Source of the DNA: Gemmatimonadota bacterium
Lineage (GTDB): Bacteria; Gemmatimonadota; Gemmatimonadetes; Gemmatimonadales; GWC2-71-9
Direction of reading: 5' to 3'
Assembly (NCBI GenBank): GCA_039587315.1
Contig: JBDHIS010000004.1
Span: forward strand, 32,144-96,143
Length of the DNA: 64,000 bases
Below, in pieces: positions 37,721 through 49,764 of the stretch (position 1 is its first letter; every line of letters begins with the position of its first letter). Below the pieces are notes generated by a model. The model had not been told where the DNA came from. It saw only the letters and a program-made list of their open reading frames with translations, and made no database searches. A program made the translations under genes and the position numbers.

Positions 37721-37990
37721 TCAATCTTCTTTAGACTCTGTGGTCTTCTCCACGACGATCGTGAAGTTCGCCGCGAGGGCAGCGATGGCGCCGACCGCGG
37801 CCCAGATCGGAGCAAACGCAGCCCCCACCAGGCCCCACGTGAGGGGAATCTCGATGAGTGTCTGCCCCTCGTCGTTCCGAATGATGACGCGGCGAATGTT
37901 GCCCTGGCGGATGAGCTCCTTGATCTTGGCGAGGAGGCCCTCGCCTGCGACCTGATACTCCTCCGTTTGGACGTCTTCCTGATCCGTCAT
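37721..37990 (-). CDS. DUF4342 domain protein
   Basis: KIKELIRQGNIRRVII..TLIEIPLT.G..GA..AP.WAAVGAIAAL..FTIVVEK. Confidence 0.88.
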   Translation of the reverse strand: MTDQEDVQTEEYQVAGEGLLAKIKELIRQGNIRRVIIRNDEGQTLIEIPLTWGLVGAAFAPIWAAVGAIAALAANFTIVVEKTTESKED

Positions 37991-38077
37991 GCTCGCCCCC
38001 TGTTCTCTCCCCGCAATCTCGACATCCTGCGCTCCCCGTACAATAATGTGACGGGCGCCGAGAAGGGGAGTGGCCGG

Positions 38078-38518
38078 ATGAGCGAGATCAAGATCAAGCT
38101 GACGGGCTGGAAGGCCCTAGTGGCGCTCGTCGTCGTGGCGGGCTTCCTCGGGTACAGGTATTACGCACTGCACACCACTGTTGCCACCGAGGCGGCCGAC
38201 GAGCTGCGCTTCTGGCTGGCTGCCGAGTACATCGCCGCGGGGTTGCCGGCCCTGGAGGAGGCCGTGGAGAGCGGGGACGCCGTGGCCGCCGAGCTGCAGG
38301 CCCAGGAGATCCTGGCGCGGGAGCGGATCGAATTCACCGAGATCTCCGCGCGGGGGAGCGCCGATGATGTCGTCGTCCGGGTAGAGCTCCTGGTGGACGG
38401 GCGGGCCCCGCCCGTCGGCAAGCCGGTGCGGTTCTTTCGGATGAAGCACTCGATGGTGACCGGCTGGCGCATGCAGCGGGAGGTGCACGCGATCTCGTAC
38501 TACCTGAGGTTCATCTAG
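38078..38518 (+). CDS. Hypothetical protein with N-terminal TM anchor
   Basis: GGGAG RBS, ATG 38078, one TM helix; candidate promoter TCGACA-17-AATAAT at 38019-38047. Confidence 0.72.
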   Translation: MSEIKIKLTGWKALVALVVVAGFLGYRYYALHTTVATEAADELRFWLAAEYIAAGLPALEEAVESGDAVAAELQAQEILARERIEFTEISARGSADDVVVRVELLVDGRAPPVGKPVRFFRMKHSMVTGWRMQREVHAISYYLRFI

Positions 38519-38546: not shown

Positions 38547-41500
38547 CTACTTGCAGGGCAGAAACCGGACGGTGGTCTCCATCTCCTCCAGCACCTGAGC
38601 GAGCGCCGACACAGTGTCGTCTATGTCCTGTTCGGTCGTTTCGGCGGAGAGGGAAAACCGCACGGAACAGTGCACGTCATCAGCGTCGCGCCCCATGGCG
38701 AGCAGCACGTGGGTCGGCTCGGGCGAGCCCGACTTGCAGGCCGATCCCGATGACAGCGAGATGCCGTGTTGATCGAGGGCGACCACGACTGACTCACCTC
38801 GTAGGCCGGGCAGCGTGAGATTGAGCGTGTTGGGGAGGCGCCGCTCCCGCTCGCCGTTCAGCGTCGCGTCGGGGATCAGCCCCCGGACTCCTGACTCGAG
38901 CCTGTCTCGCAACTGCCGCATCTGGCCGGTGTCCTGTGCCGCCTGGAGCGCCAGCTCGGCTGCCTTGCCCAACCCTACTATGGCCGGGACGTTCTCCGTC
39001 CCCGCGCGCAGTCCACCTTCCTGTTTGCCGCCGTGGATCAGCGGGTCCAGCTTCACGCCGCGGCGTGCGTACAGCACCCCAACCCCCTTTGGTCCGTGGA
39101 ACTTGTGCCCGGACAGGGTGAGGAGGTCGACGCCGAGGCTCTCGACGTCGATCGGGACCTTCCCGGCTGCCTGCACCGCGTCGGTGTGGAACAGTACGCC
39201 GTGTTCGTGTGCCACAGCACACAGGTCGGCGATAGGCTGGACGGTCCCTACCTCGTTGTTGGCCATCATCACGGAAACCAGGGTCGTCTCGGCGGTGAGT
39301 GCTCCACGCAACGCATCCGGGTGCACGAGCCCGTACTCGTCCACGTTCAGGTAGGTGACGCGGAATCCGACCCGTTCCAGGAAACGGCAGGTCTCGAGAA
39401 CCGCCGGGTGCTCGATGGTGCTCGTGATGATGTGGTTGCCCTTCTCCCTCTGTGCGAATGCCACGCCCTTCAGGGCCTGGTTGTCGGCCTCCGACCCGCC
39501 TCCGGTGAATGTCATGCGCCGCGGGCGGGCGTTGATGAGTCGTCCAACCTGGCGCCGCGCGTTCTCCACGGCATCGCGCGCGTCGCGGCCCACTCCGTGG
39601 ATGCTCGACGGGTTGCCGTGGGTGGCGTCCAGGAAAGGCAGCATCGCTTCGCGCACCGCGTCGGCGACGCGAGTCGTGGCATTGTTGTCGAGGTATATGC
39701 TCCGCTGCGGCGTCCTGATCATGGGCACGCTAAGCGTCACGGGGCCGCATGCCTCGGCGGCGAGAGCCGCCGTCCGCCGAGTGGCGGCGGTGCCGGCTTC
39801 CACCTTGACCACCTCGCACAGCAATGCCTTGTAGACGGGAAAGCCCGACACCTCGTCGTAGTTACCCAGGTCCGTGAGCTCGTTCACGTTCCATTCTTGC
39901 CAGGCCTTCGATCCTACCGGCGTGCCGCCGCCCATGTTGCATTCGACCGCGCCGCGCACGATGTCGTCGGTGACGCGCGCCCTGAACGGCACCGATCCCC
40001 GCGGAGTGTGCACCTCGACGAGATCGCCGGTGCTTATGTCGCGCGCTGCCGCGTCCGCCGCGTTGATCTCCACCGTCGGCTCCGGGTTGTCCTTTGCCAA
40101 CCCGTCGATACCGTGGTGCTGGGACCGAAAATCGGTGTGCGGTCGCGCGCCGGAGTTGAACACGAGCGGGAACCGATCAGCCAGGTCGGGACGCGCGACG
40201 GGACCCTCCGTGGGCTCGGTGTACTTGGGCAGCGGCTCGTACCCGTACTCCTCGAGAGTCGTCGACCAGATCTCGAACTTTCCTGTCGGCGTCTCGAACC
40301 CCGGCTCGCCGTCCGTCCGCAGCCCTCCCTTCTCCCACTTCTTGAACTCCATCATCGACGTTGGGAGCTTCACCCAGCCACCGGCCGCACGCACACTCTC
40401 CGGAGTGTGGCCCGAGCCCTCGAGCGCAAACCGCACCAGCTCTTCCTCTGTCTGAGGATAGAGGTGCCCGTATCCCAGCCGGCGGGCCAGCTCCGCCATG
40501 ATCAGATAATCGTTGCGTGCCTCGCCCACGGGCTCGACGAGCTTCTCGCGCAAGCGGAATATCGGGCCGTACACCATGTAGGAGTCGATCTCGAACATGG
40601 TCGTTGCCGGAAGCACGATGTCCGCCCACGCTGCGTCGGCGGTGAGCTGCCTGTCCACGCACACGAGAAAGTCGAGCTTGCTCAGCGTCTCACGCCACAC
40701 CGCCGTTTCGGGCCACGATGTGAGGAGCGAGGCGCCGTGGACGACGAGACCCCGAATGCGATACGGGTCTCCCTCCAACACCGACTTGACCAGGCCACTG
40801 GCGTGGGACTCGCCCCGGAAATCCGAGTATACCGGGAAGGTCTCGCGCGCCACCGCCCGGTCGAGGTCCGGATTCTCCTGGTTGCAGGAGCGGTTGATCG
40901 GGAAGTGCGAGTCGAGCATCGCGAGACCGATTCCGCCCGGCACGTCGAGCTGGCCGGCCAGCGCGAACAGCGTGAATACGGCCCGGATCGCCTGGATGCC
41001 GCTGTTGGAGTACTCGAGACCCGTGTATATGACCGGGCAGGCACCGGTGGCGCTGCAGATGCGGCGCGCGAGGTCGCGGATCGTATCGGCCGGCACACCG
41101 GTGATCGATTCGGCTACCTCCGGCCGGAAGTGTTGCACATACGTAGCCAACTCATCGAAACCGTGGCACCACTGTTCGGCGAAGGCCTCGTCGAACAGCT
41201 CCTCGTCGATCATCACCTCGATCATGCTGAGCGCCAGCGCCGCGTCAGTCCCGGGCCGGATAGGGATCCATTGGGCGCCGGTACGGGTCGCGGTCTCGGT
41301 GCGGCGCGGGTCTATCACCACGATGTCGGCGCCCCGCTTGGCGGCGGCCTCCAGCCGGTGCATGTCCAGCGGCGGGGAGTCCGTGGCGGGATTGGCGCCC
41401 CACACGACGAGCATCTCCGCGTTCTCCATGTCCGTGAACATGTTGACCAGCATCCGCCCCAGCGTCACCGACGGCGCGATCATCGCAAACGACACGTAGC

Positions 41501-41954
41501 AGAGCGCGCCCACGCCCATCGTGTTGGGTGAACCGAAAGGGAACAGGACGTTGGAGGCGGAGGAAACCGCCACGCCCTTGGGCTGGAACATGTCGCACAG
41601 CGAGAGCTCGAACGCACCGCGACCGGTGTAGATGGAGACGGCCTCGGGTCCGGATTCCTGTTTTATGGCGTTCAGCCGCTCTACGATGGTGTCGTAGGCT
41701 TCATCCCAGCTGATACGCTCGAACTCGTGGGTCCCCTTGGGACCCACGCGCTTCATTGGGTAGCGCAGACGGTGCTCGGAGTAGATGATCTCCGGCGCGT
41801 GCGAGCCCCGCCGGCAGATCATTCCGAGGGGGTGTCCGGTGTCGGCGCGGATGTCCTCGATCTTCCCGTTGCCGACCCCCACCTCCACCCAGCAACCGGC
41901 CGGGCAAATGCCGCAGATGCCCTTCTTCCAATCGAGCTGACCTGAGTCCATCAT
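38547..41954 (-). CDS. Fusion of a Mo/W-bisPGD oxidoreductase and an IscS/NifS-type cysteine desulfurase
   Basis: N-terminal CGICPAGC...C 4Fe-4S motif, RLRYPMKR, GALCY, WGANP, VIDPR, PGTD, DIVLP, domain IV FNSGAR..FRSQH; then YLDNNATT, HTDAVQ, SGHKFHGPKG (PLP Lys), RAGTENV, SSGSAC (catalytic Cys). Single ORF. Confidence 0.93.
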   Translation of the reverse strand: MMDSGQLDWKKGICGICPAGCWVEVGVGNGKIEDIRADTGHPLGMICRRGSHAPEIIYSEHRLRYPMKRVGPKGTHEFERISWDEAYDTIVERLNAIKQESGPEAVSIYTGRGAFELSLCDMFQPKGVAVSSASNVLFPFGSPNTMGVGALCYVSFAMIAPSVTLGRMLVNMFTDMENAEMLVVWGANPATDSPPLDMHRLEAAAKRGADIVVIDPRRTETATRTGAQWIPIRPGTDAALALSMIEVMIDEELFDEAFAEQWCHGFDELATYVQHFRPEVAESITGVPADTIRDLARRICSATGACPVIYTGLEYSNSGIQAIRAVFTLFALAGQLDVPGGIGLAMLDSHFPINRSCNQENPDLDRAVARETFPVYSDFRGESHASGLVKSVLEGDPYRIRGLVVHGASLLTSWPETAVWRETLSKLDFLVCVDRQLTADAAWADIVLPATTMFEIDSYMVYGPIFRLREKLVEPVGEARNDYLIMAELARRLGYGHLYPQTEEELVRFALEGSGHTPESVRAAGGWVKLPTSMMEFKKWEKGGLRTDGEPGFETPTGKFEIWSTTLEEYGYEPLPKYTEPTEGPVARPDLADRFPLVFNSGARPHTDFRSQHHGIDGLAKDNPEPTVEINAADAAARDISTGDLVEVHTPRGSVPFRARVTDDIVRGAVECNMGGGTPVGSKAWQEWNVNELTDLGNYDEVSGFPVYKALLCEVVKVEAGTAATRRTAALAAEACGPVTLSVPMIRTPQRSIYLDNNATTRVADAVREAMLPFLDATHGNPSSIHGVGRDARDAVENARRQVGRLINARPRRMTFTGGGSEADNQALKGVAFAQREKGNHIITSTIEHPAVLETCRFLERVGFRVTYLNVDEYGLVHPDALRGALTAETTLVSVMMANNEVGTVQPIADLCAVAHEHGVLFHTDAVQAAGKVPIDVESLGVDLLTLSGHKFHGPKGVGVLYARRGVKLDPLIHGGKQEGGLRAGTENVPAIVGLGKAAELALQAAQDTGQMRQLRDRLESGVRGLIPDATLNGERERRLPNTLNLTLPGLRGESVVVALDQHGISLSSGSACKSGSPEPTHVLLAMGRDADDVHCSVRFSLSAETTEQDIDDTVSALAQVLEEMETTVRFLPCK

Positions 41955-42046: not shown

Positions 42047-42688
42047 CTAGGGGCTCGTCTCTTCTTCTTCCGCCACGTAGGCGCTCGTGATGACGACGGG
42101 TTCGACCGGGAGAGCCTCGTGGCGGCCCACGCGCCGCGCCGGCACCGCCACTATCGCGTCCACCACGTCCAAGCCATCCACGACGCGGCCGAACACGGCG
42201 TAGCCCCAGCCGTCCGAGAACGTGCCGTAATCCAGCTTCTGGTTGTCCACGACGTTGATGAAGAACTGGGTCGTGGCGCTGTGCGGGTCGGGCAGGCGGG
42301 CCATGGCGACCGTGCCGCGCATATTGCTCAGGCCGTTATCGGCCTCGTTTGTGATGCCGCCGACCGAGCTGGACCGGCCCTGCATCTCGGCGGTGTACTT
42401 GCCGGCCTGGATCATGAACCCGGGACGCACTCTGTGGAACGTGAGCCCGTTGTAGAAGCCGATCCGCACGTGGGCCACGAAGTTGTCCACCGTGATCGGC
42501 GCCTTCTCGCGATCGAGCTCCATTACGATGCGGCCTTGGGTCGTCTCGAGGACTATGGTGGGCGTCGGGTCGGGCGCCACGGCCTCGCCGGCCGGCCGGG
42601 CGGCATCACCTTGGCCGCCTCCTCCCTGGCATGCAGTCAGCAGCACGGCCAGTGCGCCAAATGCCATCGAACAGTGCTTGAATCTCAC
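42047..42688 (-). CDS. Cyclophilin-type peptidyl-prolyl isomerase, lipoprotein
   Basis: GGAGGA RBS, GTG 42688, lipobox LTAC, APITVDNF, FYNGLTFHRV.PGFMIQAG, RGTVAMAR..DPHSATTQFFIN, GYAVFGRVVDG. Confidence 0.93.
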   Translation of the reverse strand: MRFKHCSMAFGALAVLLTACQGGGGQGDAARPAGEAVAPDPTPTIVLETTQGRIVMELDREKAPITVDNFVAHVRIGFYNGLTFHRVRPGFMIQAGKYTAEMQGRSSSVGGITNEADNGLSNMRGTVAMARLPDPHSATTQFFINVVDNQKLDYGTFSDGWGYAVFGRVVDGLDVVDAIVAVPARRVGRHEALPVEPVVITSAYVAEEEETSP

Positions 42689-42817
42689 GCTTCCTCCGTG
42701 CACGGTGTTTTGGACGAACAATAGGGTTCGCTGGACGGCCCCGCCGCGTCAAGTCCTGCGGGCGGTCCCGTTGGCGGGTCCAGCAGCTATTATAGGGGAC
42801 CTCACGAGGAGAGAGAG

Positions 42818-45091
42818 TTGAGTCCCGCCGATCGCGCCACCAAGACAGCCGTCGTATCAGCTGTGGTAACCGCAGCCGCCATGATTGCGTTCCAGATGGC
42901 GGCCAAGGCGACCCGCGACGCGCTGTTTCTGTCCACTTTCGATGTGTCGGCGCTGCCGCGCATGGTGATGGTGTCGGCGTTGGTGTCAATGGCCTTCGCA
43001 CTTCTGGCGTCGCGTCGGATGACCGCGATCGGGCCGGCGAGGCTCGTACCCGCCGCGTTCGCGGTGAGCGCGGCGCTCCTGATCGTGTGGTGGGTGCTCG
43101 TGGGCCAGTTCCGCCGCCCCGTGGCTGTGGCGCTGTACCTGCACTACGCGGCCCTGGGCGCCGTGCTCATCTCCGGGTTCTGGTCGGTCGTGAACGAGCG
43201 CTTCGACCCGCGTACCGCCAAGCGCTACGTGGGCCGTATCGCGGCCGGCGCCACCGTGGGCGGGCTCCTGGGGGGCCTGCTGGCCGAGCGTGTGGCCGTG
43301 CTGTTCACCATGGAAACGATGTTCCCGATTCTCGCCGGGATACACTTGCTCTGCGCGGTACTCGTGCTCGGCGTTCCCGCCCAGTGGCAGCGGCGGCCTG
43401 CAGTCAGCGCGCCGAGGCGGGCCGCCGAGAAGCCGGCCCGGTCGGGGATCAAGGTCATCGCCGAGACCCCGTACCTGCGCGGGCTGGTGACGCTCGTTCT
43501 GTTGGCTACGGTCAGCGAGGTCTTCATCGACTACGTATTCAAGGCGCGCGCCACCGGCACCATTGGTAGGGGCGACGACCTGCTGCGCTTCTTCGCCGTG
43601 TTCTACGCCGGTGCGGCGTTCCTCACCGTCATCGTTCAGGCAGTCGGGGCCCGCGTTCTGCTGCAGCGGCTCGGACTCACCCGTACGGTGGGCCTGCTGC
43701 CGACAGCGGCCGGCCTCGGCAGTGCTGCAGCCATCGCGATACCCGGGCTGCCCTCGGCGGCGGCTGCCCGCGGCGTGGAGCAGGTGACCCGCAACGGGCT
43801 CTACCGCACCGGATACGAGTTGCTCTTCACGCCGCTTCAGCCGGAGCACAAGCGGTCCACCAAGGCTCTGGTGGACGTGGGCGTCGTTCGCCTGGGCGAC
43901 ATCGCCGGCAGTGCGGTCGTGCAGTTGACCCTGGTGGTCGCCGCGGTGGGGGTGATCAACATCCTGCTCGGGCTCGCTATACTGCTGTCGATCGCCGGGG
44001 TCATCGTGGCGAGTCGGTTGCACAAGGGCTACGTAGCGACTCTCGAGAAGAGCCTCCTGTCGCGAGCGGTCGACCTGGACGACCTGGACGACGTCCAGGA
44101 CGTCGCCACGCGAACGGCTGTTCTCCACTCAGCGGGGGCGTTGGGTCTCACTCAAGCGCCGCCGCGCTACACCGCCGAGTTGGAGGCGGTGGCGCACGAG
44201 GCGGCAGCGCTGGCGGTGTCGGGCGAACAGCCGGTGCCGCAGCGCCAGCAGCTCGATCCTGAAATGGAGCGGATCGTGGAGCTCCGGTCGCGCGACGCGA
44301 AGCGCGTTCGGAGGGCCTTGAGAGCAGGGCCAGTCACCCAGGCGTTGGTGCCGCACGTCGTTCCGTTGCTGGCATGGCAGGACGTGGTGGCGGACGTGCT
44401 CCACGCGCTGCGTGAAGTAGCCACCGAGGCGACCGGGCAGCTGGTGGACCACCTGCTCGACCCCGACGAGGAGTTTGCCGTCAGGCGCAGGCTGCCCCTT
44501 GTGCTGGTTGCGAGCCCAACCGAGCGGGCGATGGACGGCCTTTTCCGCGGGCTCGACGACAAACGCTTCGAGGTCCGCTACCGCTGCGGGCGGGGGCTCG
44601 TGCGGTTGCTGGAGCTCAATCCGCAGCTGGGAGTGACTGAGGACCGAGTCTATGCGGCGGTCGTTCGTGAAGTAGCTGTGGACAGGGGCGTGTGGGAGAG
44701 TCACCGCCTACTGGATACGACGGAGGACGATTGGTCTCCCGTTGTGGACGAAGTCTTGAGCGAGCGCGCCAACCGCAGCCTGGAGCACGTGTTCACAGTG
44801 CTGTCGCTGGTGCTGCCGCGGCAACCACTCAAGATCGCCTTCCGCGGGCTCCACACCAACGACATGATGCTGCGCGGGACGGCACTGGAGTACCTGGAAA
44901 CGGCCCTGCGGGAGGACGTGCGAGAGGCGCTGTGGCCGTTCCTGGAAGACAACCGTCCCAAGCGGCGGGAGTCGCGTCCGACGAACGAGATCCTCGAGAA
45001 TCTGCTCCACTCGCAGCACTCGATCGTGATGAATCTCGAGGAGCTGAAGAAGCTGCAGCGGTCCAAGGGTGGAGAGCCGGACGACAACTAG
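42818..45091 (+). CDS. NTT/TLC-family (ATP/ADP translocase-like) carrier fused to a HEAT-repeat domain
   Basis: About 12 TM with AKATRDALFL, FWSVVNERFDPRTAKRY and LYRTGYELLFTPL..HKRSTKALVD; C-terminal helical repeats (DDKRFEVRYRCGRGL, LRGTALEYLE). Confidence 0.8.
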   Translation: MSPADRATKTAVVSAVVTAAAMIAFQMAAKATRDALFLSTFDVSALPRMVMVSALVSMAFALLASRRMTAIGPARLVPAAFAVSAALLIVWWVLVGQFRRPVAVALYLHYAALGAVLISGFWSVVNERFDPRTAKRYVGRIAAGATVGGLLGGLLAERVAVLFTMETMFPILAGIHLLCAVLVLGVPAQWQRRPAVSAPRRAAEKPARSGIKVIAETPYLRGLVTLVLLATVSEVFIDYVFKARATGTIGRGDDLLRFFAVFYAGAAFLTVIVQAVGARVLLQRLGLTRTVGLLPTAAGLGSAAAIAIPGLPSAAAARGVEQVTRNGLYRTGYELLFTPLQPEHKRSTKALVDVGVVRLGDIAGSAVVQLTLVVAAVGVINILLGLAILLSIAGVIVASRLHKGYVATLEKSLLSRAVDLDDLDDVQDVATRTAVLHSAGALGLTQAPPRYTAELEAVAHEAAALAVSGEQPVPQRQQLDPEMERIVELRSRDAKRVRRALRAGPVTQALVPHVVPLLAWQDVVADVLHALREVATEATGQLVDHLLDPDEEFAVRRRLPLVLVASPTERAMDGLFRGLDDKRFEVRYRCGRGLVRLLELNPQLGVTEDRVYAAVVREVAVDRGVWESHRLLDTTEDDWSPVVDEVLSERANRSLEHVFTVLSLVLPRQPLKIAFRGLHTNDMMLRGTALEYLETALREDVREALWPFLEDNRPKRRESRPTNEILENLLHSQHSIVMNLEELKKLQRSKGGEPDDN

Positions 45092-46548
45092 GTGGTCGCT
45101 GCCGCCAGCCGTTCGTAGCGCCGCCCGATCAGGACCGCCAGCACGAGCCAGCATAGCACGAGCGCCACGTTGACCAGCGCGAAGCCCCCGATGCTCAACA
45201 TCAGGACGTTGGCCCCCACGGCGACGACGGCCGCCGACAGCACGTCGCCCGCCCGCCAGAAGAAGGAGTCGATTGCCTGCTTGGCCTTGTACTTCTCCTC
45301 ACGCGTAGTGGGGAGGAACAACGTCTGGCGCACAGTGTTGTTGAGCGAGTAGTCGGTTGCGTTCTCGGCGGTCTTGATCAACCGGATCACCATCAGAATC
45401 GGCACGAAGGCGATCACCGAATAGCCTATGAGGGCGATCACCGGGAGGAACATCAGCGCCCTACTGATTCCCACGTACTTGATGATCCGCGACACCACGA
45501 AGGCCTGGAGCAGGAGTCCCAGCACGTTTACGATGGTGAAGAACGTGGAGTAGAAGGCCGCGATCCGCGCCTGGACGTCCTCCGGTCCCCCTCCCTCGGC
45601 AGCCACCGATTGCTCCGTGAGAGTCTCCACCGTTCGTCCGAGGATGTACTCACCGTTCGTGTTCACCCAGTTGAGCAAGAGGATCAGGAAGGCGATCATC
45701 AGGAGGTAGCGACTGCGAAACACGAGCTGGAATGCGCCGCCTTCGGACTCCTGCTCCAGCGGCTCGACCTGCGGCTCCTCGCCGGGCTCCACGACCTGGA
45801 AGATGCCGCTCTCTCTCTTGTAATCGGATTCGGGAACCCTGAACTCGCCGGTCGCGGCTCGAAACTGTCCTGTAGCGGCGGGCATCGTCCCGGTCGTGAA
45901 CGGGTCCGGCAGGTGCGCCTCGGTCCTGTAACGCTCGCGGCCGTCCACGACGTTCGTGATGACGGCGGCCAGCAGCAGAAATACCGCAGAGATGATGAAC
46001 AACTGGTAGATGCCGATGCCACTCAGCAGGTTCGGTATGTAGCTGCCCACCACGGCGCCAGCCGACGCCCCGAAGCCCAGAATTGGGAAGAGGCGTTTGC
46101 CCTCCTCGGTGGTGTACACGTCGTTGGCGAACGCCCAGAACTGGGCGACCATCATCACGTTGAAGATCCCGACCCAGACGAAGAACGCCACTCCCAGCGC
46201 GAAGCCGGAAAAGCCGGAGACTGCGAGAGCGTAGAACACCCCGAGACAGGCGACGAAGAAAGCTGTGACGCCGTTGATGAGGCGCCGCCGCGGCACGCGC
46301 GCCGCAAAGGCTCCGTAGGCTGGAACGAGGATGAGCAGCAGGACGACCTGGCCCGCAGACGTGTAGCTCTTCACCTCCGCGGTCGCGCCGCCCAGGATCA
46401 GCGCCTCGCGCACCACCTTCAGCACGTAGTAGGCGCTGAGAATGAGAAAGACGTTGAGCGTGAGGAGGAGGACGTTCACGCTCTCCCCGGCGCGTACCTC
46501 CGTGAACAGGCGAAGGAGTCTGTCGACCGGGCTGGGCCGGGAGTTCAT
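45088..46548 (-). CDS. NTT/TLC-family (Npt1/Npt2-like) nucleotide transporter
   Basis: YYVLKVVRE, QFWAFANDVYTTEEGKRLFPILG (cf. NTT FWGFANQIT..EAKRFY), DYSLNNTVRQTLFLPTTREEKYKAKQAID (cf. KYSLFD..KEMAYIPL..KGKAAID). Confidence 0.88.
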   Translation of the reverse strand: MNSRPSPVDRLLRLFTEVRAGESVNVLLLTLNVFLILSAYYVLKVVREALILGGATAEVKSYTSAGQVVLLLILVPAYGAFAARVPRRRLINGVTAFFVACLGVFYALAVSGFSGFALGVAFFVWVGIFNVMMVAQFWAFANDVYTTEEGKRLFPILGFGASAGAVVGSYIPNLLSGIGIYQLFIISAVFLLLAAVITNVVDGRERYRTEAHLPDPFTTGTMPAATGQFRAATGEFRVPESDYKRESGIFQVVEPGEEPQVEPLEQESEGGAFQLVFRSRYLLMIAFLILLLNWVNTNGEYILGRTVETLTEQSVAAEGGGPEDVQARIAAFYSTFFTIVNVLGLLLQAFVVSRIIKYVGISRALMFLPVIALIGYSVIAFVPILMVIRLIKTAENATDYSLNNTVRQTLFLPTTREEKYKAKQAIDSFFWRAGDVLSAAVVAVGANVLMLSIGGFALVNVALVLCWLVLAVLIGRRYERLAAATT

Positions 46549-48159: not shown

Positions 48160-49764
48160 ATGACTGACATCCAGATCCCGGACAAGCGACCGCGCCACGC
48201 CCCAACCGGGAGCGGCGGCGCGCTCCCGCCCGATCTGCTCGAGGCTGCCTCGCGCCGGCTGGGAGTGGCGAGCCTGCTATGGGCTGGCCTATGGGTGCTG
48301 GCGTTGGTCATGAACAACGTGGTGGGGCCGGCGCTCTCGCCTGGCACGCCGCTCGACGACGCATGGCCGTGGCCCGGGAACCCCGTGGCCATCGGCGTGA
48401 TCGTGATCTCTCTCGCGCTGTTTGCCTACACGCGGTGGCATGCGTGCGACTGCGAGCTCTCGCTCGATCTCGGACTCGTCTACGAGGTCGTGTTGGCCTT
48501 CGCGATCGGGTTCGTGAACCAGTGGACGCCCAACGTGATCGGTCTGTCGTGGATATGCGTCCTGGTGCTGGTGCATCCGATGATCGTGCCGCACACCAGG
48601 GGGAAGACGTTGGTGGCGGCCCTCATCGCGGCGTCCATGGACCCGGTGGGCCTCGCGATCACGGCCGCTCGTGGCGTCGCGCTCCCACCCGCGGCGGTGC
48701 TCCTATGGGCCGTGCTCCCCAACTACATCTGCGCCCTCATAGCAGTCGTGCCGGTAGGGATCATCACGCGGCTGGGCCGGCAGGTGCGTGATGCTCGCGA
48801 ACTCGGCAGCTATCAGATGGGTGACCTGCTGGGTCGGGGGGGGATGGGAGAGGTGTATGGGGCCAACCACCGGTTGCTGCGGCGACCGGCCGCAATCAAG
48901 GTGATCCGACGTGACGCGCTGGGCGCGCGCAGTAGCGAGGGAGCGAGCACCATTGTCCAGCGCTTCAAGCGCGAGGCGGAAGCGGCCGCGCGGCTATACT
49001 CGCCGCATACGACAGCCCTATACGACTTCGGCGTGACCGAGGACGGGAACTTCTACACCGTGATGGAGCTCCTGCGGGGGATCGATCTCGATTCGCTGGT
49101 GGATCGGTTCGGGCCGGTGCCGCCAGCCCGTGTGGTGTACCTGCTCACTCAGGCGTGCCACTCCCTCGCTGAGGCGCACGCGCTCGGTCTGGTCCATAGG
49201 GACGTGAAGCCGGCCAACCTGTACACCTGTTGGGTTGGGCTCGAGGCGGACTTCGTCAAGGTGCTCGATTTCGGCCTCGTGAAGCCCCCGCCCGAAGAGG
49301 AGGACCAGGTCAAGCTCACCGCGCCGGATCTCACTACAGGCACGCCTGCGTACATGGCGCCCGAGCTCGCTCTGCGGCAGGATCCAGACTGGCGCGCGGA
49401 CGTCTACTCGCTGGGCTGCGTCGCATACTGGCTGCTCACCGGCAATCTCGTGTTCCAGGCCGACACTCCGATGAAGATGATGCTGCGTCACGTGGATACG
49501 CCGCCGCTGCCGCCCTCGCGCCAAAGCGAGCTGGACATCCCGCCGTCGCTAGATGATGTGGTGATGGCGTGCCTGGAGAAGGACCGGCGGCGGAGGCCGT
49601 CGAGTGCGGAGGCACTGGCGCGCCAACTATCGGAGTGTGACGTGGGTGAGCCGTGGAGCCGGGAGCGGGCCGACGTGTGGTGGCGTGCTCATCTGCCCGA
49701 CCTGGTACCGAGCCGCGCAGGAGGTGCGTCCGAACCGAGAGCGTCGGCGACAGCCAACGCCTGA
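48160..49764 (+). CDS. Ser/Thr kinase with N-terminal multi-TM sensor domain
   Basis: About 6 TM, then LGRQVRDARELGSY, GRGGMGEVY, AAIKVI, HRDVKPAN, DFGLVK, GTPAYMAPE. Confidence 0.95.
   Translation: MTDIQIPDKRPRHAPTGSGGALPPDLLEAASRRLGVASLLWAGLWVLALVMNNVVGPALSPGTPLDDAWPWPGNPVAIGVIVISLALFAYTRWHACDCELSLDLGLVYEVVLAFAIGFVNQWTPNVIGLSWICVLVLVHPMIVPHTRGKTLVAALIAASMDPVGLAITAARGVALPPAAVLLWAVLPNYICALIAVVPVGIITRLGRQVRDARELGSYQMGDLLGRGGMGEVYGANHRLLRRPAAIKVIRRDALGARSSEGASTIVQRFKREAEAAARLYSPHTTALYDFGVTEDGNFYTVMELLRGIDLDSLVDRFGPVPPARVVYLLTQACHSLAEAHALGLVHRDVKPANLYTCWVGLEADFVKVLDFGLVKPPPEEEDQVKLTAPDLTTGTPAYMAPELALRQDPDWRADVYSLGCVAYWLLTGNLVFQADTPMKMMLRHVDTPPLPPSRQSELDIPPSLDDVVMACLEKDRRRRPSSAEALARQLSECDVGEPWSRERADVWWRAHLPDLVPSRAGGASEPRASATANA

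What the first reader, a model, noticed from the sequence alone, without database searches (positions are those of the whole stretch)
38547..41954. Single-chain Mo/W-bisPGD oxidoreductase-cysteine desulfurase fusion
Seen: an uninterrupted 1135-aa ORF with a complete DMSO-reductase-family catalytic subunit (4Fe-4S motif, probable Cys ligand GALCY, no Tat signal), an Ala-rich linker, an intact IscS-type domain (PLP Lys, SSGSAC) and an extra terminal Cys (RFLPCK). No partner electron-transfer subunits are adjacent. Established: several bisPGD enzymes need a terminal sulfido ligand supplied by IscS via FdhD-type chaperones. Inference: in-cis sulfuration or a coupled cysteine-to-sulfide/persulfide reductase. 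I recall similar fusions as database annotations but no functional study.
Basis: partly seen in the sequence, partly recalled or inferred. Interest (0 to 1): 0.62.

Follow-up and report, generated by a model that had tools for sequence, protein, structure and literature searches.

The report
Known ergothioneine synthase (MES) fusion gene
The fused molybdenum/tungsten-enzyme plus cysteine-desulfurase gene is real, but it belongs to an enzyme family described in 2022, the metallopterin-dependent ergothioneine synthase, which moves sulfur from cysteine onto trimethylhistidine to make the antioxidant ergothioneine; this is an ordinary new member of that family.

Summary
Window 38547-41954 on the minus strand is one uninterrupted 1135-aa ORF. 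It has a 4Fe-4S motif, a Mo/W-bisPGD catalytic module closest to acetylene hydratase, an Ala-rich linker and a complete NifS/IscS-type desulfurase ending in RFLPCK.

It is not a misassembly. About 3,900 homologues were found, and 389 genome loci from many phyla match it. All 120 listed proteins carry both Pfam domains, and 78 of the 80 fetched loci give full-length ORFs.

This is the MES family (Beliaeva & Seebeck, JACS Au 2022, PMC9516567).
- All residues tested there by mutation are present: Cys152, Lys951, Cys1073, Cys1096, Cys1134.
- The protein is 54-67% identical to all four experimentally active MES enzymes and lies among them in a tree.
- The same genome encodes a bona fide EgtD on another contig, has no EgtB, and has Moco genes.
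- Among 121 genomes of the order, three of the four EgtD-positive, EgtB-negative genomes carry MES.

Verdict: an MES orthologue, a new member of a known kind, of low interest. One minor point: the host also has an aa3-type cytochrome c oxidase, although MES was reported only from anaerobes.

The parts
38547..41954 (-). MES gene: metallopterin-dependent ergothioneine synthase orthologue, 1135 aa (P0001)
   Evidence: Single ORF. Domains. 54-67% identity over the full length to four experimentally active MES enzymes. Lies among them in the tree.
39825..41954 (-). N-terminal Mo/W-bisPGD module (residues 1-710): 4Fe-4S cysteines 14, 17, 21, 47 and metal-ligand Cys152
   Evidence: Pfam PF04879, PF00384 and PF01568. 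The closest solved structure is acetylene hydratase 2e7z, followed by PsrA 2vpw. Cys152 is invariant in 78 of 78 homologues.
39699..39824 (-). Ala-rich interdomain linker (about residues 711-752)
   Evidence: Sequence ...VKVEAGTAATRRTAALAAEACGPVTLSVPMIRTPQ.... Its Cys736 is not conserved (32 of 78).
38547..39698 (-). C-terminal class-V PLP cysteine desulfurase module (residues 753-1135): PLP Lys951, persulfide Cys1073, Cys1096, relay Cys1134
   Evidence: PF00266 E = 3.7e-81. TIGR03402 NifS scores 511 bits. PDB IscS/NifS matches at E about 1e-100. Lys951, Cys1073 and Cys1134 are invariant in 78 of 78, Cys1096 in 76 of 78.
42047..42721 (-). Cyclophilin-type PPIase gene directly upstream on the same strand. 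It is a conserved neighbour in Gemmatimonadota, and no functional link was shown.
   Evidence: PF00160 E = 2e-42. Found next to MES in L002, L003, L009, L013, L052 and L074.

Best explanation

Inferred by homology to CaMES:
- The C-terminal PLP domain (Lys951) removes sulfur from L-cysteine and holds it as a persulfide on Cys1073.
- The persulfide is relayed through the penultimate Cys1134 on the flexible C-terminal tail to the Mo or W bis-pyranopterin centre of the N-terminal module of the same polypeptide. That centre is ligated by Cys152.
- The resulting metal-sulfido is attacked by C2 of the imidazole ring of N-alpha-trimethylhistidine (hercynine), which releases ergothioneine without any need for O2.

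Shown here:
- The substrate comes from an EgtD histidine methyltransferase encoded elsewhere in the same genome.
- The genome has no EgtB, the O2-dependent sulfoxide synthase that forms the C-S bond in the aerobic route. This leaves MES as the only recognised C-S bond-forming enzyme of ergothioneine synthesis found in this organism. EanB was not searched for.
- The architecture, every catalytic residue, the relationship to assayed enzymes, and the presence of EgtD and Moco genes.

The catalytic activity itself is inferred.
For: Family description and experiments: PMC9516567. CaMES, hvMES, EaMES and AbMES each make ergothioneine from trimethylhistidine in E. coli. C153S, K952A, C1074S and C1135S abolish production, and C1097S only halves it.

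This protein:
- It has the same domain order, and acetylene hydratase is the nearest solved Mo/W module, as reported for CaMES.
- The equivalents Cys14/17/21/47, Cys152, Lys951, Cys1073, Cys1096 and Cys1134 all align with CaMES and hvMES and are invariant or nearly so in 78 homologues.
- Full-length identity is 67% to hvMES, 58% to CaMES, 56% to EaMES and 54% to AbMES. These are lower bounds because the reference sequences were read from a machine-read PDF. The four active enzymes are only 51-59% identical to each other.
- In the tree the query sits in a Gemmatimonadota subclade inside the large clade that holds hvMES, while CaMES, EaMES and AbMES lie on the other side. It is therefore bracketed by assayed enzymes.

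Pathway context:
- Own-genome EgtD scores TIGR03438 330 bits against an equivalog cut-off of 290.9. It aligns to M. smegmatis EgtD structures with the GSTIGN, YD...F, PEYYPT and E-x-S motifs kept.
- There is no EgtB: the best hit is 70 bits against a cut-off of 360.
- MoaC, MoeA and an adjacent MobA-like gene are present, as are seven other PF00384 (molybdopterin oxidoreductase domain) matches.
- EgtD lies beside MES in 34 of 80 relatives' loci.
- Across 121 genomes of the order, MES is in 4, and all 4 have EgtD. Of the four EgtD-positive, EgtB-negative genomes, three have MES.
Against: No activity was measured for this protein or for any Gemmatimonadota member. EgtD is not adjacent here; it lies on another contig, and in two relatives it is 25-48 kb away, so there is no operon evidence in this lineage. 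EanB, the rhodanese-type anaerobic ergothioneine synthase, was not searched for. The genome encodes an aa3-type cytochrome c oxidase, whereas the original paper reported MES only in anaerobes. The Met252 equivalent of M. smegmatis EgtD is Ile in this genome's EgtD, which is a conservative change. Co-occurrence counts are small and are not corrected for phylogeny.
Confidence: 0.9

Rival explanations
1. An MES-like enzyme with a different physiological role in this lineage. It could sulfurise another imidazole or betaine substrate, use scavenged hercynine, or run in reverse to take sulfur out of imported ergothioneine.
For: MES and EgtD are unlinked in all Gemmatimonadota loci. The trimethylhistidine/ergothioneine sulfur exchange is chemically reversible in CaMES. 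Two MFS/TLC-like transporters are conserved neighbours. One relative, G083, has EgtD-EgtB as well as MES.
Against: hvMES, which is in the same large clade and has the same RFLPCK end, makes ergothioneine. All four MES-bearing genomes of the order have EgtD, and three of them lack EgtB, which is the pattern expected if MES supplies the missing step. Substrate-pocket residues could not be compared because no structure with bound substrate exists.
Confidence: 0.06
2. Either this is a redox Mo/W enzyme (polysulfide, thiosulfate or selenite reductase type) whose fused desulfurase only installs a terminal sulfido once during maturation, or it is a cysteine-to-sulfide/persulfide reductase.
For: PsrA/PhsA are among the nearer Mo-module relatives. 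Sulfido ligands supplied by IscS are established for formate dehydrogenases (background cited in PMC9516567).
Against: There is no electron-transfer partner and no Tat signal. All redox-family NCBIfam scores are far below their cut-offs, for example PhsA 270 against 694 and Fdh-alpha 291 against 666. In CaMES, desulfurase-dead K952A still exchanges sulfur between ergothioneine and trimethylhistidine but makes no new ergothioneine, which shows that the desulfurase is needed for every turnover and not for maturation.
Confidence: 0.03
3. An assembly or frameshift artefact that joins two separate genes.
For: None found. Read coverage could not be examined.
Against: The same full-length fusion occurs in hundreds of independent assemblies, including complete chromosomes, at 69-93% identity. 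Composition is even across the junction. The linker and tail cysteine are conserved.
Confidence: 0.005

Closest known systems
hvMES (hydrothermal-vent metagenome MES, UniProt A0A3B1C0R1; Beliaeva & Seebeck 2022)
   Same: Same length class (1136 against 1135 aa), the same domain order and the same C-terminal ...RFLPCK. It shares at least 67% identity over the full length and lies in the same large clade of the tree. It produced 85-153 uM ergothioneine in E. coli.
   Different: It comes from a different host lineage: its nearest genome locus is a Gammaproteobacteria MAG (L040), whereas this gene is from Gemmatimonadota. The gene here has not been assayed.
CaMES, metallopterin-dependent ergothioneine synthase of Caldithrix abyssi (UniProt A0A7V4WV16), the type enzyme
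   Same: About 58% identity over the full length. Cys14/17/21/48, Cys153, Lys952, Cys1074, Cys1097 and Cys1135 all have equivalents here, shifted by one residue after the first three.
   Different: CaMES lies on the other main branch of the MES tree and ends in RFIPCR. The paper describes its hosts as anaerobes, whereas this genome also encodes an aa3-type cytochrome c oxidase.
Acetylene hydratase (W-bisMGD, PDB 2e7z)
   Same: It is the closest solved structure for the N-terminal module (E = 2.5e-66). Like that module it is cytoplasmic, has one 4Fe-4S cluster and a Cys ligand to the metal, and catalyses a reaction with no net redox change (PMC9516567).
   Different: It has no desulfurase domain, is only distantly similar (27% reported for CaMES), and hydrates acetylene instead of transferring sulfur.
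Moco sulfurases ABA3/MOCOS (NifS-like domain fused to a MOSC domain)
   Same: A class-V desulfurase delivers cysteine sulfur to a molybdenum centre.
   Different: Those enzymes carry a MOSC domain and sulfurate the cofactor once, for xanthine-oxidase-family enzymes. No MOSC domain is present here, and in MES sulfuration recurs in every catalytic cycle.
EgtB and EanB, the other two ergothioneine C-S bond-forming enzymes
   Same: They belong to the same pathway, act on the same substrate from EgtD and lead to the same product.
   Different: They are unrelated folds with unrelated chemistry: an O2-dependent non-haem iron sulfoxide synthase and a rhodanese-type persulfide transferase. EgtB is absent from this genome. 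EanB was not tested.

Membership tests
MES (metallopterin-dependent ergothioneine synthase) | Single chain with an N-terminal acetylene-hydratase-like Mo/W-bisPGD module and a C-terminal class-V PLP cysteine desulfurase | tested here: met
   Pfam domains in that order. 2e7z is the best Mo-module structure, and IscS/NifS match the C-terminus.
MES (metallopterin-dependent ergothioneine synthase) | Four N-terminal cysteines for a 4Fe-4S cluster (CaMES Cys14, 17, 21, 48) | tested here: met
   Cys14, 17, 21 and 47 align with CaMES and hvMES. They are conserved in 76-77 of 78 homologues, and the exceptions are gaps.
MES (metallopterin-dependent ergothioneine synthase) | Cysteine ligand to the metal (CaMES Cys153, essential) | tested here: met
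   Cys152 in GVGALCYVSF, invariant in 78 of 78.
MES (metallopterin-dependent ergothioneine synthase) | PLP lysine (CaMES Lys952, essential) | tested here: met
   Lys951 in LSGHKFHGPKG, invariant in 78 of 78.
MES (metallopterin-dependent ergothioneine synthase) | Persulfide cysteine and penultimate relay cysteine (CaMES Cys1074 and Cys1135, both essential), plus the conserved Cys1097 | tested here: met
   Cys1073 (SSGSACKSG) and Cys1134 (RFLPCK) are invariant in 78 of 78. Cys1096 is conserved in 76 of 78.
MES (metallopterin-dependent ergothioneine synthase) | Sequence relationship to the assayed enzymes | tested here: met
   54-67% identity to all four, against 51-59% among the four themselves. 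Bracketed by them in the tree.
MES (metallopterin-dependent ergothioneine synthase) | Genome also encodes a histidine-specific methyltransferase, EgtD | tested here: met
   G000:C37 hit, TIGR03438 330 bits against a cut-off of 290.9. Active-site motifs are kept against 4uy7. It is unlinked here but adjacent in 34 of 80 relatives.
MES (metallopterin-dependent ergothioneine synthase) | Converts trimethylhistidine plus cysteine sulfur into ergothioneine | not testable with these tools
   This needs the published in vivo assay (E. coli K-12, trimethylhistidine feeding, LC-MS).
MES (metallopterin-dependent ergothioneine synthase) | Host is an anaerobe (a distribution claim in the 2022 paper, not a property of the enzyme) | tested here: not met
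   The genome encodes CtaD (729 bits against a cut-off of 670.75) and CoxB. This bears on ecology, not on membership.
Moco sulfurase ABA3/MOCOS type | NifS-like domain fused to a C-terminal MOSC domain | tested here: not met
   No MOSC domain was found by Pfam. The partner is a complete bisPGD catalytic subunit.
Respiratory polysulfide/thiosulfate reductase (PsrA/PhsA) or formate dehydrogenase alpha subunit | Score above the curated family cut-off, a Tat signal or partner FeS/membrane subunits | tested here: not met
   PhsA scores 270 against 694 and Fdh-alpha 291 against 666. There is no twin-arginine motif and there are no partner genes.

The most novel reading that the evidence does not exclude
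In this Gemmatimonadota lineage MES is the only ergothioneine C-S bond-forming enzyme in a bacterium that also respires oxygen: it has an aa3 cytochrome c oxidase and no EgtB. If so, MES is not confined to anaerobes. The enzyme would have to tolerate O2 or work only in anoxic phases, or, less likely, serve a different role such as sulfur exchange with imported ergothioneine or hercynine.
Probability: 0.35. Interest if true: 0.3.

Novelty: new member of a known kind. Interest (0 to 1): 0.15.

Why it matters
It matters little beyond correct annotation. Public records call these genes 'cysteine desulfurase NifS', 'IscS subfamily' or 'aminotransferase class V-fold enzyme', names that hide a complete oxygen-independent ergothioneine pathway (EgtD plus MES). 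Recognising it adds Gemmatimonadota with aerobic respiratory genes to the hosts of MES. It also shows a complementary distribution with EgtB within one order, which is modest ecological information about who makes ergothioneine in sediments and soils.

Tried and rejected
- **Misassembly:** rejected, because hundreds of independent assemblies encode the same fusion.
- **Respiratory or redox Mo-enzyme assignments:** rejected on sub-threshold family scores, the lack of a Tat signal and the lack of partner genes.
- **Functional link to the neighbours:** the PPIase, two MFS/TLC-like transporters, a 183-aa membrane ORF and a Crp-type regulator are conserved only within Gemmatimonadota and gave no informative family hits. 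The regulator has no FNR-type cysteine cluster, so no oxygen-sensing link can be drawn.
- **The EgtD neighbourhood on contig C37:** it holds unrelated genes for BNR/sortilin-like proteins, an ATP-grasp ligase and an SRPBCC protein.
- **First literature query:** 'cysteine desulfurase' + 'molybdopterin oxidoreductase' + 'fusion' found nothing. 'Acetylene hydratase' + 'cysteine desulfurase' found the key paper.
- **Structure prediction:** not run, because it would not change the verdict.
Full report
**Observation.** Window 38547-41954 holds one uninterrupted ORF of 1135 aa on the minus strand. The long ORFs on the opposite strand, such as 39033-41531 (+), are the usual by-product of about 66% G+C.
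- Pfam finds Molybdop_Fe4S4 (9-59), Molybdopterin (62-491), Molydop_binding (604-710) and Aminotran_5 (753-1112, E = 3.7e-81).
- NCBIfam places the C-terminus nearest NifS/IscS. TIGR03402 scores 511 bits, just under its cut-off of 530.75.
- The N-terminus is far below the cut-off of every named Mo enzyme: Fdh-alpha 291 against 666, PhsA 270 against 694.
Only the strand was left unstated.

**Is the fusion real?** Yes.
- A database search returned about 3,900 homologues. All 120 listed carry both domains, most at 1090-1200 aa and 76-93% identity, and they come from many phyla.
- A scan of one genome per species found 389 loci. 78 of the 80 fetched give full-length ORFs at 69-92% identity to the query.
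The independent assemblies, some of them complete chromosomes, make a chimeric junction untenable.

**What it is.** The nearest solved structure for the N-terminal module is the tungsten enzyme acetylene hydratase (2e7z), followed by PsrA (2vpw). The C-terminus matches IscS/NifS structures at E about 1e-100. A full-text search for 'acetylene hydratase' plus 'cysteine desulfurase' found Beliaeva & Seebeck, JACS Au 2022 (PMC9516567). Notes from earlier runs of this scan on look-alike genes pointed to the same paper.

The paper describes exactly this architecture as the metallopterin-dependent ergothioneine synthase, MES:
- Four homologues (CaMES, hvMES, EaMES, AbMES) made ergothioneine from trimethylhistidine in E. 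coli.
- The isolated C-terminal domain is an active cysteine desulfurase.
- C153S (metal ligand), K952A (PLP lysine), C1074S and C1135S abolish production, and C1097S only halves it.
- K952A and C153S chains do not complement each other, so sulfur travels within one polypeptide.
- K952A still shuttles 34S between ergothioneine and trimethylhistidine, so the desulfurase is needed for each turnover and not for maturation.

**Membership tests.**
- Sequences taken from the paper's supplement are machine-read and contain some errors, so the identities are lower bounds. Full-length BLASTP identities are 67% (hvMES), 58% (CaMES), 56% (EaMES) and 54% (AbMES). The four assayed enzymes share only 51-59% with each other.
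- The equivalents of all functionally probed residues are present: Cys14/17/21/47, Cys152, Lys951, Cys1073, Cys1096 and Cys1134.
- In 78 genome-derived homologues, Cys152, Lys951, Cys1073 and Cys1134 are invariant. Cys1096 is 76 of 78. The FeS cysteines are missing only where the N-terminus is gapped. Other cysteines, including Cys736 in the linker, vary.
- A FastTree tree (LG+CAT model) of 83 sequences places the query in a Gemmatimonadota subclade (support 98). That subclade sits inside the large clade containing hvMES, with CaMES, EaMES and AbMES on the other side of the tree. The query is thus bracketed by enzymes of proven activity.
- hvMES also ends in RFLPCK, so the 'RFLPCK' subgroup is represented by an assayed member.

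**Pathway context in the same genome.** The assembly is 3.2 Mb in 82 contigs, 97.7% complete.
- It encodes one EgtD (G000:C37:49334-50233). This scores TIGR03438 330 bits against an equivalog cut-off of 290.9.
- It aligns over its whole length to M. smegmatis EgtD structures. The substrate-binding motifs are kept, and only the Met252 equivalent is changed, to Ile.
- There is no EgtB: the best hit is 70 bits against a cut-off of 360.
- Cofactor supply is present: MoaC, MoeA with an adjacent MobA-like gene, and seven further PF00384 (molybdopterin oxidoreductase domain) matches.
- EgtD is not next to MES here, and its own neighbours are unrelated.
- EgtD lies directly beside MES in 34 of 80 relatives' loci. 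These are Dehalococcoidia, Aminicenantes, Planctomycetota, Electronema and others, interleaved in the tree with unlinked cases.

**Distribution in the order.** In 121 genomes of the same order:

| Feature | Genomes |
|---|---|
| Full-length MES | 4 (G000, G087, G095, G083) |
| EgtD | 52 |
| EgtB-like gene | 49 |
| EgtD present, EgtB absent | 4 (G000, G087, G095, G096) |

- All four MES genomes have EgtD. In G087 and G095 it is on the same contig, 48 and 25 kb away.
- Three of the four EgtD-positive, EgtB-negative genomes are MES carriers.
- The fourth MES genome, G083, has both routes.
- This is the pattern expected if MES replaces EgtB as the sulfur-inserting step. The counts are small and not corrected for phylogeny.
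- This result also answers a doubt raised in earlier notes of this scan, that Gemmatimonadota MES genes without an adjacent egtD might lack EgtD altogether. They do not.

**Mechanism.**
- Shown by sequence: all the parts are present.
- Inferred from CaMES: cysteine is desulfurated on PLP-Lys951, giving a persulfide on Cys1073. This is relayed via Cys1134 on the C-terminal tail to the Cys152-ligated Mo or W bis-pyranopterin centre of the same chain. The metal-sulfido is attacked by C2 of the imidazole ring of trimethylhistidine, and ergothioneine leaves. The 4Fe-4S cluster is retained as in acetylene hydratase. No external electron partner is needed, which fits the lack of partner genes.
- Rivals are scored in their own sections.

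**Surroundings.**
- A cyclophilin PPIase gene lies 92 bp upstream on the same strand.
- Two MFS/TLC-like transporter genes, a 183-aa single-helix ORF convergent with MES, and a Crp-type regulator without FNR cysteines are conserved around MES only in the closest Gemmatimonadota loci.
- None of these gives a functional link.

**Novelty and score.**
- The architecture, its chemistry and even Gemmatimonadetes members (Table S1 of the paper) are published.
- The one mildly unexpected point concerns the host. It encodes an aa3-type cytochrome c oxidase, with CtaD at 729 bits against a cut-off of 670.75 and CoxB beside it. The paper states that MES occurs exclusively in anaerobes.
- MES is also patchy in the order (4 of 121 genomes), and its tree mixes phyla, which points to horizontal transfer.
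- Interest: 0.15.

Noticed in passing
G000:C29:65915-67252 (L086 1111-2916, minus strand; CoxB at L086 2931-4025, minus strand): The genome encodes an aa3-type cytochrome c oxidase: CtaD scores 729 bits against an equivalog cut-off of 670.75, with CoxB adjacent. A second, divergent haem-copper oxidase lies on C66. By gene content the host is not a strict anaerobe, although the 2022 paper reports MES only from anaerobes.
   Followed up: partly
G083:C5:73188-75358 and G083:C8:41595-44984: One genome of the same family carries an adjacent EgtD-EgtB pair (the O2-dependent route) as well as a full-length MES (the O2-independent route), so it may have two routes to ergothioneine.
   Followed up: no
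order-level search; tree: MES is patchy: 4 of 121 genomes of the order have it. Its tree interleaves Gemmatimonadota, Calditrichota, Pseudomonadota, Chloroflexota, Planctomycetota and others at 70-80% identity, which suggests frequent horizontal transfer.
   Followed up: partly
window 42818-45091 (+) and 45088-46548 (-): Two divergently placed MFS/TLC-like transporter genes (757 and 486 aa), with only weak similarity to NTP/NDP exchangers, are conserved next to the PPIase-MES pair in the closest Gemmatimonadota loci (L002, L003, L009, L013, L074). Their substrate is unknown. A role in hercynine or ergothioneine transport is pure speculation.
   Followed up: partly
window 37967-38518 (+): A 183-aa ORF with one predicted membrane helix and no family match lies convergent with the 3' end of MES. 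It is conserved at 63-83% identity in five Gemmatimonadota loci.
   Followed up: partly
G000:C6:1079-2350 (+): This is the strongest PF00384 match in the genome (258 bits), in a 911-aa frame with one in-frame TGA. It is probably a selenocysteine-containing formate dehydrogenase alpha subunit.
   Followed up: no
window 48160-49764 (+): A 534-aa Ser/Thr protein kinase of the PknB/Stk1 type (kinase domain at 210-500), with no evident link to MES.
   Followed up: no
names given by sources: Public annotations label MES homologues 'cysteine desulfurase NifS', 'IscS subfamily cysteine desulfurase' or 'aminotransferase class V-fold PLP-dependent enzyme'. None of the names shown for the 120 listed hits reflects the ergothioneine synthase function.
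   Followed up: no
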